A DNA stretch of 23,187 nt from the UHGV virus genome UHGV-0778869; one strand, given 5' to 3'. This document shows, one piece after another, positions 4,816 to 15,013 of this stretch. How positions within the stretch are numbered: the first letter of the stretch is position 1; every line of letters starts with the position of its first letter. The translations under genes were made by a program, and so were the position numbers. This stretch comes from a virus. A model generated the notes under the pieces. That model had not been told where the DNA came from. It saw only the letters and a list, made by a program, of their open reading frames with translations, and searched no databases.

Positions 4816-5632
4816 CGTGTTCACCCTCACGAACTTTCAGGTAGGTATTATCGTTAAGCAGGAAATCAAATCCCTTTTTGTGCCAGACGGTTCCGCGTTG
4901 ATGGTTTTGGCGTTCTTCGAACATCCATCGGCAATTTTCGCCTACGTAGCTCAAATAATTTCTCCAGTCCTGCATCGTGAACCCATGCCCGTCAAGCTGG
5001 CGGGTTATCACTCCGGCTTTGCGCCAGAACGTTCGGATCTGGTTTTTACGCTTGTCATTCAGTGCGCGGATTCTTGGCGCTTCAGGAAGGATTTCGTGGT
5101 AAGCATCGACAACATCCTGACAGCTGACGGAAGGTTTTTTCTTGTCAGACTTTTTGTCTGCTGTGGCACTCTCTAATACGTCAGTATTAGAGATATTATT
5201 TATATTATTGTTTATGGACAACCGTTGGACAACCGTTGGACAATATCCGCTGAGAGCCGCGCCATCACTGGTGTTTGCGTTGGACAACTGTTGGACAACC
5301 GTTGGACAATTTTTTGCCTGAAAATCGTCATATTTAACGATTGTAAACAGGCTAAATTTCTTCCCCATCGAGCAAATATTAAGCATACCTTTCGACTCAA
5401 AAGTCCGTAATAAGCTCCGAACTTTGTTGTCGGGGATGAATGTTTCTCTGACCAGTGATGGGCGTCCAGTTATCATCTGACCGCGATCAACAGTTATCGG
5501 ACCGATATCCGTATTGACGACAGTAGATTCGTGATTAGCCTTGAGGATTAAGTGAAGCCAAAGATGTACTGCCTGAGAGTCCTTATAGAGCCTGCTGTCC
5601 ATAAACTGGCGGTGTATAGAGACATACCCCAT
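4805..5632 (-). CDS. Lambda O-like replication initiator containing the origin iterons
   Basis: Start at ATG 5632 (AGGAGG SD) or 5695 (AGGAG SD); iteron-encoded CPTVVQQLS repeats in the middle; C-terminal region resembles lambdoid O proteins. Confidence 0.75.
   Translation of the reverse strand: MGYVSIHRQFMDSRLYKDSQAVHLWLHLILKANHESTVVNTDIGPITVDRGQMITGRPSLVRETFIPDNKVRSLLRTFESKGMLNICSMGKKFSLFTIVKYDDFQAKNCPTVVQQLSNANTSDGAALSGYCPTVVQRLSINNNINNISNTDVLESATADKKSDKKKPSVSCQDVVDAYHEILPEAPRIRALNDKRKNQIRTFWRKAGVITRQLDGHGFTMQDWRNYLSYVGENCRWMFEERQNHQRGTVWHKKGFDFLLNDNTYLKVREGEHDDR
5213..5310. repeat. Origin iterons: six copies of 11-bp GTTGGACAAC(C/T) in two triplets (5213-5244, 5279-5310) separated by 34 bp, next to an AT-rich tract (5181-5212)
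   Basis: Direct tandem repeats read in the sequence, inside the O-like gene as in lambdoid ori. Confidence 0.8.
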
Positions 5633-5681
5633 ACTGGATGCCTCCTGATGTTGTACAGGGTTATGCCTGTAATCAGCTAAC

Positions 5682-5843
5682 TTAACGACGCCCATGTTTC
5701 ACTCCTGCTTTGGCTAGTCTGTAAACACCAACAAGGCGCTCTGCGAACGCCCTGTTATTTGCTGCGGCTACCACTAATCCCTCAGGTGAATCAGGGTGTC
5801 GAATCTCTTCTTTTTCCTGGTATTTCTTACGACGTTTTGTCAT
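5682..5843 (-). CDS. Hypothetical small basic protein (53 aa) between the cII-like and O-like genes
   Basis: ATG 5843-5841 preceded by AGGAG; MTKRRKKYQEKEEIRHPDSPEGLVVAAANNRAFAERLVGVYRLAKAGVKHGRR. Below the ORF-track size cut-off; found by hand. Confidence 0.4.
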   Translation of the reverse strand: MTKRRKKYQEKEEIRHPDSPEGLVVAAANNRAFAERLVGVYRLAKAGVKHGRR

Positions 5844-5877
5844 AATTACTCCTGTGGATTGATCCAGTCTTTCTACA

Positions 5878-6156
5878 TCAGGCCTCGAAGAATTCGCCGT
5901 TCTTCGGGGCTTTTTCTTTTGTCAGCATTCTGGCTACTTTCTTAGCCAGTTCCGCCAACTCCTCGTCTTCAACACCCCATTCAAGAACAGCAAGAAGCAT
6001 TCCCATTTTGGGGATGAAGCTGTCTTTCCATCGCGAAATTTGCGATTCATTAATCCCTAACGCGTCGGCAACCTTTCGCTGACCACGTACAGCAATTCGA
6101 TTCAGGATGTTGCTTGTAATTGCATTCGCTTTCTTGCGAGTACTTGTAAGTTGCAT
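5878..6156 (-). CDS. cII: CII-like transcriptional activator (P22 C1-like, 92 aa)
   Basis: SQISRWK and MLLAVLEWGV motifs shared with lambda CII; position between cro and O. Confidence 0.85.
   Translation of the reverse strand: MQLTSTRKKANAITSNILNRIAVRGQRKVADALGINESQISRWKDSFIPKMGMLLAVLEWGVEDEELAELAKKVARMLTKEKAPKNGEFFEA
6119..6132 (+). promoter_or_regulatory. Candidate pRE CII-binding site TTGC-N6-TTGC (TTGCTTGTAATTGC)
   Basis: Tandem TTGC tetrads 6 bp apart on the cI-sense strand inside the first codons of the cII-like gene, the lambda pRE arrangement. Confidence 0.6.
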
Positions 6157-6189
6157 ATGTAAGTATTTCCTTAACTAATAAGAAGTTAT

Positions 6190-6207
6190 GCGCATCAACT
6201 TATGCGC
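6190..6207 (-). terminator. Candidate tR1-like hairpin downstream of nutR
   Basis: Minus-strand RNA GCGCAU-AAGUUG-AUGCGC followed by AUAACUUCUUAUUAG; T-run imperfect. Confidence 0.35.
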
Positions 6208-6214
6208 GTTGTAT

Positions 6215-6258
6215 TCCCGCATTTCGGCGGGAATGAGGACCATGACTGTTAAAGAGCG
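6215..6258 (-). promoter_or_regulatory. nutR: boxA CGCTCTTTAACA plus boxB hairpin TCCCGC-CGAAAT-GCGGGA
   Basis: Read on minus strand between cro and cII-like; boxA resembles the E. coli rrn boxA; the identical boxA/boxB pair recurs as nutL. Confidence 0.7.
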
Positions 6259-6264
6259 GTGTTA

Positions 6265-6459
6265 CTATTTGTTTTTCTTGTTGCTTGGGAAAGGACGAAC
6301 TTCCTCTCCAATCACACTGCCATCAGGCTTTACCGTAACCATAATGTTACGGCCTGCCAGAATGGCCTTGCTGATAGCGCACTGGATTACACCAAAGTCA
6401 CTGGCTGCTTTAGCCTGTCCATGGATTTTGGCGTAATCGGCAAGTGTCATTCGAATCAT
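6265..6459 (-). CDS. cro: Cro repressor (lambda Cro fold, 64 aa)
   Basis: ATG 6459 with GGAGAG SD; product ...[41 protein letters not shown] parallels lambda Cro. Confidence 0.85.
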
Positions 6460-6488
6460 ATGCACTCTCCGTTATTAACCATGAACAA

Positions 6489-6559
6489 AGAATACTACAG
6501 GTATTCAAAGCAATCAATACTCAGGGTATTTTTAGTTTGAGTACCTTAGCTATTAGAAT
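6489..6559. promoter_or_regulatory. OR region: three 15-bp operators (6491-6505, 6516-6530, 6540-6554) overlapping divergent pR and pRM
   Basis: AATACTACAGGTATT, AATACTCAGGGTATT, AGTACCTTAGCTATT. pR on minus strand: -35 TTGATT (6517-6512), 17-bp spacer, -10 TATTCT (6494-6489). pRM -10 TAGAAT (6554-6559) would start transcription at the cI ATG. Confidence 0.65.
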
Positions 6560-6565
6560 TAAGCT

Positions 6566-7282
6566 ATGGAAAATAAAAAATCACTGACGACAGAACAGCT
6601 CGAAGACGCTAAGCGGCTTAAGGCTTTGTATGAGTCAAAAAAGAAAGAATTGGGAATAACCCAATACTCAATCGCTGATGAACTGGGTATCACCCAAGGA
6701 GCGGTAGGGCATTATCTTAATGGCAGAAACGCGCTAAACGTTGAGGTCGCATCTGGTTTTGCACGTTTGTTGCAAGTCTCAATTGCTGATTTTAGCCAGT
6801 CAATTGCTGCCAAGGTTGCAGAACAGGCAGAAAGCCTTAAGAGCGATGCCAACGTAAGGTATGCAGGGGAATACAGAGCAGGAAAGAGGTATCCGGTGTT
6901 AAGCAGTATCCAGGCTGGCTCGTGGTGTGAAGCATGCGAACCATACACCATTAAAGACATAGATGTTTGGCTTGAGTCTGACGCGCATATTCAAGGTAAT
7001 GCGTTCTGGCTTAAAGTGGAAGGTGATTCAATGACGGCACCGGTTGGGTTAAGCATTCCAGAGGGAACATTCGTTCTTTTCGATACCGGAAGGGAGGCGA
7101 TCAACGGCAGCTTGGTCATAGCAAAACTTTCTGACTCTAACGAAGCAACATTCAAGAAGCTGATAATCGACGGCGGAAATAAATACCTCAAGGGACTTAA
7201 TCCTGCATGGCCTCTCGTGCCAATCAATGGAAACTGCAAGATTATAGGCGTTGCAATTGAGACAAAACTAAGGCTGGTTTGA
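6566..7282 (+). CDS. cI: CI/C2-type prophage repressor (HTH plus S24 LexA-like autopeptidase, 238 aa)
   Basis: N-terminal HTH (ITQYSIADELGITQGAVGHYLNG); Ala-Gly cleavage site (SIQAGSW), catalytic GDSMTAP and FKKL; C-terminal half close to P22 C2 as recalled. Confidence 0.9.
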   Translation: MENKKSLTTEQLEDAKRLKALYESKKKELGITQYSIADELGITQGAVGHYLNGRNALNVEVASGFARLLQVSIADFSQSIAAKVAEQAESLKSDANVRYAGEYRAGKRYPVLSSIQAGSWCEACEPYTIKDIDVWLESDAHIQGNAFWLKVEGDSMTAPVGLSIPEGTFVLFDTGREAINGSLVIAKLSDSNEATFKKLIIDGGNKYLKGLNPAWPLVPINGNCKIIGVAIETKLRLV

Positions 7283-7299
7283 TCACGCAAGGGGCGATT

Positions 7300-7668
7300 A
7301 TGGTTGGAACCGCTATAGCAAGCTTTTTTGGGATGTTGGCAATCTCGACAATTTACGGCTTAGCGCATGCTTTTATTGCGAAATCTCTATCAGAAAAAAT
7401 AAGCCAGGCTTGGGCGCATAGATCAGCTCGTTTCATGATTCTGGTGATCATAGCAATACAAGGGATATCTGCATTTATCCTCTATGGATCAAGCTTATAC
7501 CTATTGTATCAAGGCGCGACATTTACGCCTTACACCAGTGATTACGGAACTCTATACGATGGTAGTGAAGACATCACTGTGGCTTGGATCGTCTTTGGTT
7601 TATCTATGGCCGTGTCTGTTGTAGCAGACATCATTAAGGTAATTATCGTCTTAACCTTCGCTGACTAA
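7300..7668 (+). CDS. Small polytopic membrane protein (about 122 aa) downstream of cI
   Basis: ATG 7300 with AAGGGG SD (alternative ATG 7279 overlaps the cI stop); three to four hydrophobic helices; same strand as cI. Confidence 0.6.
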   Translation: MVGTAIASFFGMLAISTIYGLAHAFIAKSLSEKISQAWAHRSARFMILVIIAIQGISAFILYGSSLYLLYQGATFTPYTSDYGTLYDGSEDITVAWIVFGLSMAVSVVADIIKVIIVLTFAD

Positions 7669-7754
7669 CCTATAATCCCGGCAGCAATAGCTATCGGGAT
7701 CCACTTCACATATCCCGCATAAAAAGCACTGAACAAGCAGACACCGAAAAAATA

Positions 7755-7841
7755 AATATCCTTTGTATTCATTTGCTTATCATTATTTCACCAAAAATAA
7801 ATACCTTGGGTATTTACACAATAAAATACCTACAGTATTCT
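7755..7841 (+). promoter_or_regulatory. OL region: three 15-bp operators (7755-7769, 7800-7814, 7825-7839) overlapping pL
   Basis: AATATCCTTTGTATT, AATACCTTGGGTATT, AATACCTACAGTATT. pL: -35 TTTACA (7813-7818), 17-bp spacer, -10 TATTCT (7836-7841). Confidence 0.6.
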
Positions 7842-7887
7842 TTAGCCATCAGCAGGACGCTGGAAGCCAAACGGAACAGATTGGCAG

Positions 7888-7928
7888 GCTCTTTAACATT
7901 GATGGGATTGTCCCGCCGAAATGCGGGA
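7888..7928 (+). promoter_or_regulatory. nutL: boxA GCTCTTTAACA (7888-7898) plus boxB hairpin TCCCGC-CGAAAT-GCGGGA (7911-7928)
   Basis: Same boxA/boxB as nutR, downstream of pL and upstream of the N-like gene. Confidence 0.7.
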
Positions 7929-8241
7929 ACCAAAGAGTAGTTGGCTTTGGGGTGACGTGAAGTGCAGCTGCACGACGGCAACCGGAAGATAAGCACCCGG
8001 CGCGCCACCGCCAAAGTCAATTCCATAGGCGTTATGCAGCCGCCACCATATTCAAGAAAGCTGCACAAGAGGTAGGAGGATTTATGTGAATACTTACATT
8101 CAATTGAGAGATTAATTAAATAGAACTGATCGAGCAGAGTCCATAAAGGCTCATAAATGCTCTTCCATCCCCGTCTAATTGGCGGGGAAGGAAACAACTT
8201 TGTAATAAAAAAATTCCAAAGTTGTTTCATCGGAGGTCAAC

Positions 8242-8514
8242 ATGACAGTAGTCATTACATATCTGGCTGACGATAACGCCAGAAATCGCCGCAGAGCACG
8301 CAGACAGGCTCAACGTGAACAGGCAATGCAAGAGCAGCGACTGGCGCGAAAAATTGCGCTAAAGCTCTCTGGTTGCGTCAGAGCAGATAAAGCAGCATCA
8401 CTCGGAAGCCTTCGCTGCAAGAAGGCAGATGAATGCAGTGGAAGTATTTGCCTGCCAAACGTAGCCATTTACTCGGCAGGCTACCGGAAATCAAAACAAC
8501 TGACAGCCAGGTAA
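8242..8514 (+). CDS. N-like transcription antiterminator with arginine-rich motif (P22 gp24-like, 90 aa)
   Basis: GGAGG SD; ARM NARNRRRARRQAQREQA near the N-terminus; C-terminal ...YSAGYRKSKQLTAR resembles P22 gp24 as recalled. Confidence 0.8.
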   Translation: MTVVITYLADDNARNRRRARRQAQREQAMQEQRLARKIALKLSGCVRADKAASLGSLRCKKADECSGSICLPNVAIYSAGYRKSKQLTAR

Positions 8515-8517
8515 GTG

Positions 8518-8742
8518 ATGAATCAGACATACATTCCATCATGCTTGAGAAATCTGCCAAAGCAGAAAGCAAAGCCCCGCAAGCAAGCCATAAAGGACGC
8601 TAAGGCAGAGGTTATTGATCAAGCAATACAATTGCTCAGGGAGGAGTTAAGAAGTGGCAAGCTCGAAGGAATGATGATGCCCTATCAGCGCGGATATCTT
8701 TCGGCGATTAGTAAGCTGGAAGTATTGAAGAGTGAATTATGA
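8518..8742 (+). CDS. Hypothetical protein (74 aa)
   Basis: ATG 8518 after AGGTAAG; MNQTYIPSCLRNLPKQKAKPRKQ...; ATGA overlap with the next gene. No family recognised. Confidence 0.5.
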   Translation: MNQTYIPSCLRNLPKQKAKPRKQAIKDAKAEVIDQAIQLLREELRSGKLEGMMMPYQRGYLSAISKLEVLKSEL

Positions 8743-9431
8743 ACTATCTGGAATTTCCGGATGGTTCATTGTTTTGGCAGCAAACCACTTATTTGAGAGG
8801 AATTAATATGTCATCAATCCGCTTAACTACGAGAATGAAAGAGAAAATCGCTCGTAACGCTTTAATTAAGTCTGGGGTTTTCACTGAGCTTGAAGAAGTA
8901 ACAAAGTTAAAGAGCCAGCTTGCACTTGACGCCAGAGTTATTGCGTTTGGCGGTAAAAAGAAAACTGAGGAAGTGGATCAGTTATCATCCAAGTTAGTAG
9001 CTATAAGTGAAGAACTTGAAAAACTGGGATGTTCATTTTACTCATACGATGTTCGTTCTACTTCAATTTATCTGACTGTATCTGGCAGAAGGGTTGGATG
9101 GCTTTCATATGGGGAAGACGGCAACGGCGAAGATATATTGCTCCCTACTCCGACCAAAGATAAATGCATGTTTGACGCAGAACACGAAATAACAAAAAGG
9201 TTTGATGAAATCTGCGCATTGCAACAAAAACTTGAAGCCAAGAAAAAGGATATCGAATCAAATGTATGGGCTGCTTTGAACTCAGTCACAACAGTTAAGC
9301 GACTTATTGAAGTTTGGTCTGAAAGCAAAGAATTGCTACCAAAAGAAGCAGATAAAGCAAGTACAGCACTTCCTGCTTTACGGGTAGAAGATTTGAATAA
9401 GATGATTGGACTTCCTTCCGAGGCCGCATAG
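8739..9431 (+). CDS. Hypothetical protein (230 aa; alternative start 8808)
   Basis: ORF with coupled start; internal ATG 8808 has a GAGAGG SD; stop lies inside the terminator hairpin. No family recognised. Confidence 0.55.
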   Translation: MNYLEFPDGSLFWQQTTYLRGINMSSIRLTTRMKEKIARNALIKSGVFTELEEVTKLKSQLALDARVIAFGGKKKTEEVDQLSSKLVAISEELEKLGCSFYSYDVRSTSIYLTVSGRRVGWLSYGEDGNGEDILLPTPTKDKCMFDAEHEITKRFDEICALQQKLEAKKKDIESNVWAALNSVTTVKRLIEVWSESKELLPKEADKASTALPALRVEDLNKMIGLPSEAA

Positions 9432-14977: not shown

Positions 14978-15001
14978 GCCGCATCAATGCGGCTTTTTCT
15001 T
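14978..15001 (+). terminator. Intrinsic terminator upstream of xis
   Basis: Stem GCCGCA / TGCGGC with loop TCAA, then TTTTTCTT. Confidence 0.6.
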
Positions 15002-15013
15002 GCGTGTAATTGC
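15000..15013 (+). promoter_or_regulatory. Candidate pI CII-binding site TTGC-N6-TTGC (TTGCGTGTAATTGC)
   Basis: Same motif as at pRE; sits just 5' of the xis ATG so that a dependent transcript would start inside xis, as for lambda pI. Confidence 0.6.

What the first reader, a model, noticed from the sequence alone, without database searches (positions are those of the whole stretch)
6489..7841. Immunity region: six 15-bp AATAC-N5-GTATT operators in two triplets flanking the repressor
OR and OL each contain three imperfectly palindromic sites spaced about 24-25 bp apart and overlapping -35/-10 elements of divergent pR/pRM and of pL; both pR and pL use the same -10 TATTCT. The operator sequence is not that of lambda, 434 or P22 as far as I recall, so this may be a distinct immunity specificity. 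The pRM -10 position predicts a leaderless cI mRNA.
Basis: seen in the sequence. Interest (0 to 1): 0.45.

Follow-up and report, generated by a model that had tools for sequence, protein, structure and literature searches.

The report
HK620-type lambdoid phage immunity switch

Summary
Four perfect AATAC-N5-GTATT palindromes (0.02 expected by chance) and a degenerate fifth (OR3) lie between cro and cI and just upstream of pL. They overlap pR, pRM and pL as in phage lambda.

The region is 99.2% identical, with no indels, to phage HK620. That GenBank record (AF335538) already annotates OR1-3, OL1-3, pR, pL, nutL and nutR here. The same module is present in 146 of 5,426 complete E. coli genomes. 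CI and Cro are true lambda homologues (53% identity in the CI N-terminal domain, 61% for Cro) with altered recognition residues. The half-site nAATACy fits the published Cro "evolutionary code".

About 20 diverged prophage relatives from at least 12 genera keep the same recognition helix, the same motif and the same OR geometry. All have a -10 hexamer 5-7 nt before the cI ATG and no Shine-Dalgarno sequence, which supports a leaderless cI mRNA.

One correction follows. The sixth site is not 24-25 bp from OL2. HK620's annotated OL3 (7777-7793) does not match the motif. The best candidate is 7754-7770, 45 bp from OL2, a spacing conserved in eight independent relatives. It overlaps an A/T-rich pL-upstream element shared with lambda.

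Verdict: already known and ordinary. Nothing here has been tested by binding experiments.

The parts
6490..6506 (.). OR1, GAATACTACAGGTATTC (17-bp frame); overlaps the pR -10
   Evidence: Perfect 15-bp core. Annotated OR1 in HK620. Conserved at -74 to -77 from the cI ATG in family loci.
6515..6531 (.). OR2, CAATACTCAGGGTATTT; its end overlaps the pR -35 and abuts the pRM -35
   Evidence: Perfect core. HK620 annotation. Conserved at -50 to -52.
6539..6555 (.). OR3, GAGTACCTTAGCTATTA (weak, 2 core mismatches); its last 2 nt are the first 2 nt of the pRM -10
   Evidence: Rank 6 of 23,171 positions with the four-site matrix. 10.0 bits with the leave-one-out family matrix. Conserved at -26 to -28. 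Same distance (19 bp) from the cI ATG as lambda OR3.
6482..6517 (-). pR: -35 TTGATT (6517..6512), 17-bp spacer, -10 TATTCT (6494..6489), inferred +1 at about 6482
   Evidence: Read from the sequence. Same span annotated pR in HK620. Geometry relative to OR1/OR2 matches lambda. Scores 8/12, below the scan threshold of 9.
6531..6566 (+). pRM: weak -35 TTTAGT (6531-6536), -10 TAGAAT (6554-6559), inferred +1 = A of the cI ATG (6566), giving a leaderless mRNA
   Evidence: Lambda has TAGATT + 6 nt + ATG and the window has TAGAAT + 6 nt + ATG. A TANNNT hexamer lies 5-7 nt before the ATG, with no SD, in 22/22 family loci.
6566..7282 (+). cI repressor, 238 aa, HTH_3 + Peptidase_S24
   Evidence: Pfam. 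43% identity to lambda CI. Q33, D38, Q44, N52, A117-G118, S155 and K197/198 are conserved. 53% identity to lambda in the N-terminal domain.
6265..6459 (-). cro, 64 aa, lambda-type Cro fold family
   Evidence: Pfam PF09048, E = 3.6e-26. 61% identical to lambda Cro. Recognition helix QCAISK against lambda QSAINK.
7300..7668 (+). hkaS, 122-aa hydrophobic protein of unknown function, co-oriented with cI (in the position of rex in lambda)
   Evidence: HK620 annotation. phrog_6534, unknown function; no Pfam or PADLOC hit.
7754..7770 (.). Probable distal OL3, AAATATCCTTTGTATTC (9/10 core match), 45 bp from OL2; overlaps the 3' end of a conserved A-tract (about 7747-7757) shared with lambda
   Evidence: Rank 5 in the window, 0.3 expected per 23 kb. 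Same 45-bp offset in OS31, L012, L010, L011, L062, L019 and L029. Either/or relation with a proximal site. Lambda has AAAAAATAAATTC at the same offset.
7799..7815 (.). OL2, AAATACCTTGGGTATTT; overlaps the pL -35
   Evidence: Perfect core. HK620 annotation. The OL1-OL2 spacing of 25 bp is conserved (24 bp in L019) in the family loci analysed.
7824..7840 (.). OL1, AAATACCTACAGTATTC; overlaps the pL -10
   Evidence: Perfect core. HK620 annotation.
7813..7848 (+). pL: -35 TTTACA (7813-7818), 17-bp spacer, -10 TATTCT (7836-7841), inferred +1 at 7848
   Evidence: Found by the promoter scan, 9/12. HK620 annotation. The initial transcribed sequence ATCAGCAGGACGC is shared with lambda pL.
6213..6258 (-). 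nutR (boxA CGCTCTTTAA plus boxB hairpin)
   Evidence: HK620 annotation mapped without indels.
7887..7928 (+). nutL (boxA GGCTCTTTAA plus the same boxB hairpin)
   Evidence: HK620 annotation mapped without indels.
6110..6123 (+). CII box TTGCTTGTAATTGC of the presumed pRE, inside the 5' end of cII and reading towards cI
   Evidence: Pattern search. Annotated as a cII binding site in mEpX2. cII is Pfam Phage_CII.

Best explanation
Window 6110-7930 is the immunity (lysis/lysogeny switch) module of a lambdoid phage or prophage. It is of the HK620 immunity type and sits in a mosaic P22/Sf6-like genome.

A lambda-homologous CI repressor (HTH plus an S24 self-cleaving domain) and a lambda-fold Cro both recognise 17-bp operators with the consensus nAATACy-N3-rGTATTn.

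At OR, three sites lie 25 and 24 bp apart. OR1 covers the pR -10 and OR2 covers the pR -35. OR2 also abuts the weak pRM -35, so CI bound there can activate pRM. OR3 covers the pRM -10, so CI at high concentration, or Cro, shuts off pRM. cI is transcribed from pRM as a leaderless mRNA that starts at its AUG.

At OL, OL1 and OL2 (25 bp apart) cover the pL -10 and -35. pL drives N through nutL. A third, weaker CI site most likely lies 45 bp upstream of OL2 at 7754-7770, over the A/T-rich pL-upstream element. It does not lie at the position annotated as OL3 in HK620.

Shown here: the sequence anatomy, the homology and the comparative conservation. Inferred: protein binding, the transcription start points, activation at pRM and any role of the distal site.
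For: - Motif enrichment: 4 perfect sites against 0.02 expected. The six best matrix scores in 23 kb all fall in the two regulatory gaps.
- Identity: 99.2%, without indels, to HK620, whose record annotates OR1-3, OL1-2, pR, pL and the nut sites at these positions.
- Proteins: CI has HTH_3 + S24, Cro is PF09048, and cII and N are also present. CI and Cro are homologous to lambda's, with conserved DNA-contact residues (Q33, Q44), activation residue (D38) and cleavage residues (A117-G118, S155, K197/198).
- Geometry against lambda: the cI ATG is 19 bp from the OR3 centre in both. The -10 + 6 nt + ATG arrangement is the same in both. The pL initial transcribed sequence is shared.
- Cro code: H1 = Q, H3 = A and H6 = K predict A2, A5 and C6 (PMC6649833). 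The observed family frequencies are A2 0.99, A5 1.0 and C6 0.93.
- Specificity control: every one of about 22 relatives with the helix (T/S)QG(A/G)(V/I)(G/A)HY (QGAVGHY in nearly all) carries the motif at conserved OR offsets, and about 35 loci with other N-terminal domains do not.
- OS31 (DNA diverged, recognition helices identical) reproduces the 25/24 and 25/45 spacings.
- Distal OL3: 8-16 bits at the -45 offset only in lineages that lack a proximal site, and negative at that offset in lineages with a site at 21 or 30 bp.
Against: - There are no binding, footprinting or transcript-mapping data for this immunity type in the literature I could search.
- pR scores only 8/12 against the sigma-70 consensus and is missed by the scan.
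- The distal site overlaps an A-tract that is conserved even in lambda, where it cannot be an operator of this specificity. Part of its matrix score and its positional conservation could therefore come from that other element.
- Its right half-site is degenerate in several relatives.
- A spacing of 45 bp (about 4.3 helical turns) is not a spacing at which lambda CI is known to bind adjacent sites cooperatively (own knowledge).
Confidence: 0.9

Rival explanations
1. OL has only two operators (OL1 and OL2), as in phage 933W. On this reading 7754-7770 is not a CI site. It is only the ancestral A/T-rich pL-upstream element (a UP-like or IHF region) and resembles a half-operator by chance.
For: - Lambda carries AAAAAATAAATTC at the same 45-bp offset from OL2.
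- All family members keep AAAAATAAAT(A/T) there, including those with a separate proximal OL3.
- A UP element next to lambda OL is described in the literature (PMC3708714).
- 933W lacks an OL3 (PMC5977221).
- The right half-site is weak in OS31, L011 and L019.
Against: - In the window, L010 and L029 the site is a 9-10/10 two-sided palindrome with GTATTC on the right. The conserved A-tract does not explain that.
- The diagnostic A at position 5 (ATAC) appears at this offset only in lineages without a proximal OL3. Lineages with a proximal site, and lambda, have T there (ATTC).
- It is the fifth best match in the whole window.
Confidence: 0.3
2. The third OL operator is where the HK620 GenBank record places it, at window 7777-7793 (TTATCATTATTTCACCA), 22 bp from OL2. 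CI would bind it through cooperativity despite the poor sequence match.
For: HK620 annotation. The spacing would resemble lambda's OL2-OL3 spacing of 20 bp.
Against: - It matches 3 of 10 core positions and scores -35 bits, rank about 15,000 of 23,171.
- No motif appears at offsets 18-34 in any of the six closest family members.
- The stretch is not conserved in OS31, L012, L010, L011 or L062.
- One of its bases (7791), and the base next to it (7776), differ between the window and HK620. None differs in 7754-7770.
Confidence: 0.03
3. The palindromes are not CI/Cro operators. They are chance repeats or sites for another protein.
For: No direct binding data exist.
Against: - The enrichment is about 200-fold over chance.
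- The sites lie exactly on promoter hexamers, with lambda geometry.
- The motif co-occurs strictly with one CI recognition helix across genera.
- It agrees with the Cro residue/base code.
Confidence: 0.02

Closest known systems
Coliphage HK620 immunity region (GenBank AF335538; Clark et al. 2001, J Mol Biol 311:657)
   Same: - 99.2% identical over 1,801 bp with no indels.
- Same cI, cro, hkaS, cII, N and nut sites.
- OR1-3, OL1-2, pR and pL are annotated at exactly these positions.
   Different: - 15 substitutions, only one of them in an operator 17-mer (the outermost base of OR3).
- The window has a 206-bp insertion between nutL and N, and the rest of the genome is a different mosaic, Sf6/IME10-like.
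- My analysis disagrees with the record's OL3 position.
Phage lambda OR/OL-CI-Cro switch
   Same: - Homologous CI (53% in the N-terminal domain) and Cro (61%).
- 17-bp operators symmetric about a central base pair.
- Three OR sites with nearly the same spacing (24/23 in lambda, 25/24 here).
- The same overlap of operators with pR, pRM and pL.
- Leaderless cI.
- A shared pL initial transcribed sequence and a shared upstream A-tract.
- N/nut, cII and pRE.
   Different: - Half-site nAATACy instead of TATCACC: base pairs 3 and 4 differ, and base pairs 2, 5 and 6 are retained.
- CI recognition residues differ: S45G, G46A, A49H, L50Y. Cro differs at S28C and N31S.
- hkaS replaces rexAB.
- The third OL site is 45 bp, not 20 bp, from OL2.
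Phage 933W (Stx2) immunity region
   Same: A lambdoid switch in which OL departs from the canonical three adjacent sites. 933W has no OL3 (PMC5977221).
   Different: A different repressor and operator sequence. Here a distal third site probably exists.
Prophage CI/operator family in other Enterobacterales (Serratia phage OS31; prophages of Tatumella, Pantoea, Lelliottia, Siccibacter, Enterobacter, Lonsdalea, Providencia, Proteus, Yersinia, Pectobacterium, Kluyvera, Scandinavium)
   Same: Same recognition helix (QGAVGHY in nearly all), same operator core, same OR geometry and the same leaderless pRM arrangement.
   Different: - CI is only 54-76% identical overall.
- The flanking base at position 1 and the OL3 position vary: 45, 21 or 30 bp, or absent.
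- The genes between cI and OL vary.

Membership tests
Lambdoid immunity region (CI/Cro bistable switch) | CI-type repressor with an N-terminal HTH and a C-terminal S24 (LexA-like) self-cleavage domain | tested here: met
   Pfam HTH_3 plus Peptidase_S24. The Ala-Gly cleavage site and the Ser and Lys catalytic residues align with lambda's.
Lambdoid immunity region (CI/Cro bistable switch) | A divergently transcribed cro next to cI, with a tripartite OR overlapping pR and pRM | tested here: met
   Cro is PF09048. Three sites lie at lambda-like positions over the promoter hexamers.
Lambdoid immunity region (CI/Cro bistable switch) | OL operators overlapping pL, which drives N through nutL | tested here: met
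   OL1 and OL2 lie over the pL -10 and -35. nutL and N are present.
Lambdoid immunity region (CI/Cro bistable switch) | A third OL operator (OL3) | tested here: inconclusive
   There is no site at the canonical spacing. A candidate lies 45 bp away with comparative support, but it overlaps a conserved non-operator element.
Lambdoid immunity region (CI/Cro bistable switch) | CI and Cro physically bind the operators, with differential affinity and cooperativity | not testable with these tools
   This needs EMSA or footprinting. No published data were found.
Lambdoid immunity region (CI/Cro bistable switch) | Leaderless cI mRNA from pRM (a lambda feature) | tested here: met
   At sequence level only. 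The -10 hexamer lies 5-7 nt before the ATG, with no SD, in the window, in lambda and in 22/22 relatives. The transcription start was not mapped.
HK620 immunity type | Near-identical cI, cro and operator sequences, so that cross-immunity is expected | tested here: met
   99.2% DNA identity. The five clear operators are identical except for one flanking base. Cross-immunity itself was not tested.
Cro 'evolutionary code' (Hall, Lefevre and Cordes 2005, as described in PMC6649833) | Recognition-helix residues H1, H3 and H6 covary with operator base pairs 2, 5 and 6 (Gln-A2, Ala-A5, Lys-C6/G-6) | tested here: met
   The Cro helix is Q-C-A-I-S-K. The half-site has A2, A5 and C6. The code is as quoted.

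The most novel reading that the evidence does not exclude
In this sub-lineage of lambda-like switches the canonical proximal OL3 has been lost, and a new CI site has evolved 45 bp upstream of OL2. That site lies directly over the ancestral A/T-rich UP-like element which, in lambda, boosts pL and, through the OL-OR loop, pRM.

CI binding there would regulate by occluding a UP element. Alternatively it would re-phase the OL-OR loop, rather than acting as an adjacent cooperative site. The database annotation of HK620 OL3 would then be wrong.
Probability: 0.3. Interest if true: 0.4.

Novelty: already known. Interest (0 to 1): 0.15.

Why it matters
It matters little for discovery. The module is a textbook lambda-type switch of an immunity type sequenced and annotated in 2001, and it is common in E. 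coli prophages (2.7% of complete genomes).

It has three modest uses:
- It gives a clean, comparatively supported operator consensus, nAATACy-N3-rGTATTn, for a CI/Cro specificity shared across at least a dozen enterobacterial genera. That predicts cross-immunity between their prophages.
- It flags a probable error in the HK620 OL3 annotation.
- It shows that the OL3 position is evolutionarily labile (45, 21 or 30 bp, or absent) while OR and OL1-OL2 are fixed. That bears on how far long-range OL3-OR3 repression of pRM generalises beyond lambda.

Tried and rejected
- Rfam scan of 5500-9000 at E <= 1: only a meaningless eukaryotic scaRNA hit.
- Sigma-70 and terminator scan: it finds pL but not pR (8/12). 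It finds no canonical terminator between hkaS and OL, so the tIMM annotated in HK620 at 7750-7780 has no hairpin plus T-run by this test.
- Literature searches for experimental work on HK620 or mEpX2 operators, immunity or repressor: nothing relevant is held. Cui et al. 2013 (PMC3581938) is not held, and one search term was malformed. Clark et al. 2001 could not be read, so only its GenBank features were used.
- Small minus-strand ORF 7772..7668 as the reason the 7754-7770 sequence is conserved: rejected. The equivalent frame in OS31 stops after 14 codons by my hand translation of the sequence printed. The ORF has no PHROG or PADLOC hit, and it is not annotated in HK620, mEpX2 or phi296.
- IHF core (WATCAANNNNTTR) at the distal site: a manual comparison found no convincing match in the window. 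Only the A-tract is shared with lambda. This was inspection, not a tool result.
- hkaS function: no Pfam or PADLOC hit, and a PHROG family of unknown function.
Full report

Yes, for five of the six sites. The pattern AATAC-N5-GTATT occurs four times without mismatch, at 6491, 6516, 7800 and 7825. Dinucleotide-preserving shuffles give 0.02 such sites. With up to two mismatches the window has 21 matches against 9.5 expected. These include 6540-6554 (OR3, 2 mismatches) and 7755-7769 (1 mismatch).

A position weight matrix built only from the four perfect sites ranks 7754-7770 fifth and OR3 (6539-6555) sixth among all 23,171 positions. The six best matches in 23 kb therefore all lie in the cro-cI gap or just upstream of pL.

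- pR is TTGATT-17-TATTCT on the minus strand, with its -10 at 6494..6489.
- pL is TTTACA-17-TATTCT at 7813-7841.
- The pRM -10, TAGAAT (6554-6559), lies 6 nt before the cI ATG at 6566.

What is not right is the claim that OL is a triplet spaced 24-25 bp apart. OL1-OL2 is 25 bp, but the next motif-like site is 45 bp from OL2. Nothing in between resembles the motif.

**2. What it is**

Genes around the sites are:
- cI at 6566-7282 (+), with HTH_3 and Peptidase_S24 domains
- cro at 6265-6459 (-), Pfam Cro
- cII at 5878-6156 (-)
- N at 8242-8514 (+)

The 1.8-kb stretch 6200-8000 is 99.2% identical, with no indels, to coliphage HK620. It is 99.7% identical to mEpX2, phi296 and phi367. Near-identical copies are in HK630, HK140, HF4s and two Stx2c phages.

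The HK620 GenBank record already annotates these features:

| Feature | Window coordinates |
|---|---|
| OR1 | 6490-6506 |
| OR2 | 6515-6531 |
| OR3 | 6539-6555 |
| OL1 | 7824-7840 |
| OL2 | 7799-7815 |
| OL3 | 7777-7793 |

It also annotates pR, pL, nutR, nutL, tIMM and pRE.

The same module occurs at 95% identity or more in 146 of 5,426 complete E. coli genomes. The rest of the window is a different mosaic: Sf6/IME10-like at about 96% over about half its length. This is therefore the known HK620 immunity module in another lambdoid/P22-like backbone.

**3. Relation to lambda, tested against the real lambda sequence**

CI is 43% identical to lambda CI overall and 53% in the N-terminal domain. 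Cro is 61% identical to lambda Cro.

Residues that are conserved in CI, with their lambda roles given from established knowledge of the lambda repressor:
- Gln33 and Gln44, which contact DNA
- Asn52, also conserved
- Asp38, which contacts sigma for pRM activation
- the Ala-Gly site and the Ser and Lys residues used for RecA-stimulated self-cleavage

The residues that differ lie in the recognition helix. Lambda has QSGVGALF and this CI has QGAVGHYL.

The geometry is lambda's:
- The cI ATG is 19 bp from the OR3 centre in both phages.
- OR spacings are 25/24 bp here and 24/23 bp in lambda.
- The pR -35 overlaps the last 3 bp of OR2 in both.
- The pRM -10 begins with the last two bases of OR3 and is followed by 6 nt and the ATG in both.
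- The pL initial transcribed sequence ATCAGCAGGACGC is shared. By homology this places the pL start at 7848.

**4. An independent test of the operator assignment**

The published Cro "evolutionary code" pairs recognition-helix positions H1, H3 and H6 with operator base pairs 2, 5 and 6: Gln-A2, Ala-A5 and Lys-G(-6) (PMC6649833). This Cro has Q, A and K at those positions.

In the 17-bp frame the half-site is n1 A2 A3 T4 A5 C6 y7, so all three predictions are met. The differences from lambda (T3C4 becomes A3T4) coincide with changes at H2 and H5 of Cro and at Ser45 of CI.

**5. Comparative evidence**

A scan of one genome per species found 80 CI relatives.
- About 22 share the helix (T/S)QG(A/G)(V/I)(G/A)HY(L/I/M)NGR, which reads QGAVGHY in nearly all of them. 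They include Tatumella, Serratia, Pantoea, Lelliottia, Siccibacter, Enterobacter, Lonsdalea, Providencia, Proteus, Yersinia, Pectobacterium, Kluyvera and Scandinavium, at 54-76% overall identity. All of them carry the motif at about -75, -51 and -27 from the cI ATG.
- About 35 loci whose N-terminal domain is different have no such sites. This serves as a specificity control.

Seventy-five sites (OR1, OR2, OL1 and OL2) from 19 loci give A2 0.99, A3 0.97, T4 0.99, A5 1.0, C6 0.93 and Y7 0.98, with an unconstrained centre.

Serratia phage OS31 has diverged DNA but identical CI and Cro recognition helices. It reproduces the whole architecture: OR spacings of 25/24 bp and OL spacings of 25/45 bp.

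In all 22 family loci a TANNNT hexamer lies 5-7 nt before the cI ATG and there is no Shine-Dalgarno sequence. The leaderless arrangement is therefore conserved.

**6. The third OL site**

HK620's annotated OL3 (7777-7793, TTATCATTATTTCACCA) matches 3 of 10 core positions and scores -35 bits. It is not conserved in the closest relatives.

The site at 7754-7770 (AAATATCCTTTGTATTC) lies at the same 45-bp offset from OL2 in the window, OS31, L012, L010, L011, L062, L019/L020 and L029.

With a leave-one-locus-out family matrix the pattern is either/or:

| Loci | Score at the 45-bp offset | Score at a proximal offset |
|---|---|---|
| Seven loci (window, L004, L012, L010, L011, L062, L029) | 8-16 bits | no convincing site (negative in six; 3.6 bits at -30 in L029) |
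| Nine loci | negative | 12-23 bits (21 or 30 bp) |
| L019 | 6.9 bits | 13.3 bits (21 bp) |
| Three loci (L005, L017, L018) | negative | no convincing site |

There is a caution. Lambda itself has AAAAAATAAATTC at exactly this offset, -94 to -78 from the pL start, and every family member keeps the A-tract. In lambda a UP element next to OL is reported to stimulate pL and, through looping, pRM (PMC3708714, which cites Giladi 1998 and Cui 2013). I could not read those papers to confirm the exact coordinates.

The distal site therefore overlies an ancestral non-operator element, and part of its conservation may be due to that. The features that are operator-specific appear only where no proximal OL3 exists: A rather than T at position 5, and GTATTC on the right.

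I put the distal OL3 at about 0.65, a two-site OL at about 0.3, and the HK620-annotated position at about 0.03. Loss or relocation of OL3 has precedent, since 933W has none (PMC5977221).

**7. Mechanism**

The anatomy is shown. The function is inferred from lambda.
- In a lysogen, CI dimers occupy OR1/OR2 and OL1/OL2 and block pR and pL.
- CI at OR2 abuts the weak pRM -35 (TTTAGT) and activates pRM through the conserved Asp38 patch.
- cI mRNA starts at its AUG.
- OR3 is the weakest site and overlaps the pRM -10. It allows negative autoregulation by CI and shut-off by Cro.
- RecA-stimulated self-cleavage of CI induces the prophage.
- N acts at nutL and nutR.
- CII acts at the TTGC-N6-TTGC box at 6110-6123 to establish repression.
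- The distal OL site, if bound, could occlude the UP-like element or take part in an OL-OR loop. This is speculation.

**8. Novelty and score**

Already known. The module and five of its six operators are annotated in a 2001 GenBank record, and the mechanism is the lambda paradigm. I found no experimental test of this immunity type in the searchable literature, so the operators remain predictions, though well-supported ones.

The incremental points are the reassignment of OL3 and the family-wide consensus. Interest is 0.15.

Noticed in passing
window 8021-8226: A 206-bp insertion between nutL and the N start codon, relative to HK620, phi296 and mEpX2. The only other phage record that holds it is CUS-3 (99.5%), where it is annotated 'bsq5; boundary sequence'. 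The + strand RNA, which would be part of the pL transcript, folds unusually well (MFE -58.1 kcal/mol, z = -4.8) and has two strong 3' hairpins preceded by a boxA-like UGCUCUU. There is no Rfam hit.
   Followed up: partly
window 7668-7772 (- strand): A 35-codon ORF, MNTKDIYFFGVCLFSAFYAGYVKWIPIAIAAGIIG, encoding a hydrophobic peptide. It starts inside the distal OL site and reads away from pL. It is not annotated in HK620, mEpX2 or phi296 and has no PHROG or PADLOC hit. The equivalent frame in OS31 stops after 14 codons (hand translation), so it is probably not a conserved gene.
   Followed up: partly
window 7750-7780: The 'tIMM' terminator annotated in HK620 at this position has no G+C-rich hairpin plus T-run. 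The scan finds no canonical terminator on the + strand between hkaS and OL. Several relatives (for example OS31, L014, L019) do have a clear hairpin plus T-run 10-15 bp upstream of the conserved A-tract.
   Followed up: partly
window 7746-7757; lambda NC_001416 about 35672-35684: The A-tract AAAAA(A)TAAAT lies at a fixed distance (about -100 to -90) upstream of pL. It is conserved between lambda and all relatives of this immunity family, although their operator specificities differ. It is probably the UP-like element described next to lambda OL.
   Followed up: partly
loci L005-L032 and L062 (prophages of at least 12 enterobacterial genera): One CI/Cro operator specificity (recognition helix QGAVGHY, operator AATAC-N5-GTATT) is shared by prophages from Tatumella and Pantoea to Proteus and Yersinia, while CI identity falls to 54%. 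This predicts cross-immunity across genera. The OL3 position varies (45, 21 or 30 bp, or absent) while OR and OL1-OL2 are fixed.
   Followed up: yes
window 15000-15013: A second exact CII-box-like TTGC-N6-TTGC (TTGCGTGTAATTGC, + strand), closely resembling the pRE box at 6110-6123. It could be a CII-dependent pI- or paQ-type promoter. The overall count of the looser pattern (8) is not far above chance (3.5).
   Followed up: no
window 8739-9431: A 230-aa protein in the early left (pL) operon just after N, with a full-length Pfam Nmad5 domain (nucleotide modification associated domain 5, E = 9e-69).
   Followed up: no
window 7300-7668: hkaS is a 122-aa hydrophobic protein co-transcribed with cI, in the position of lambda rexAB. 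It belongs to PHROG 6534 (unknown function) and has no Pfam or PADLOC match. It is a candidate prophage-expressed exclusion or membrane protein of unknown role.
   Followed up: partly
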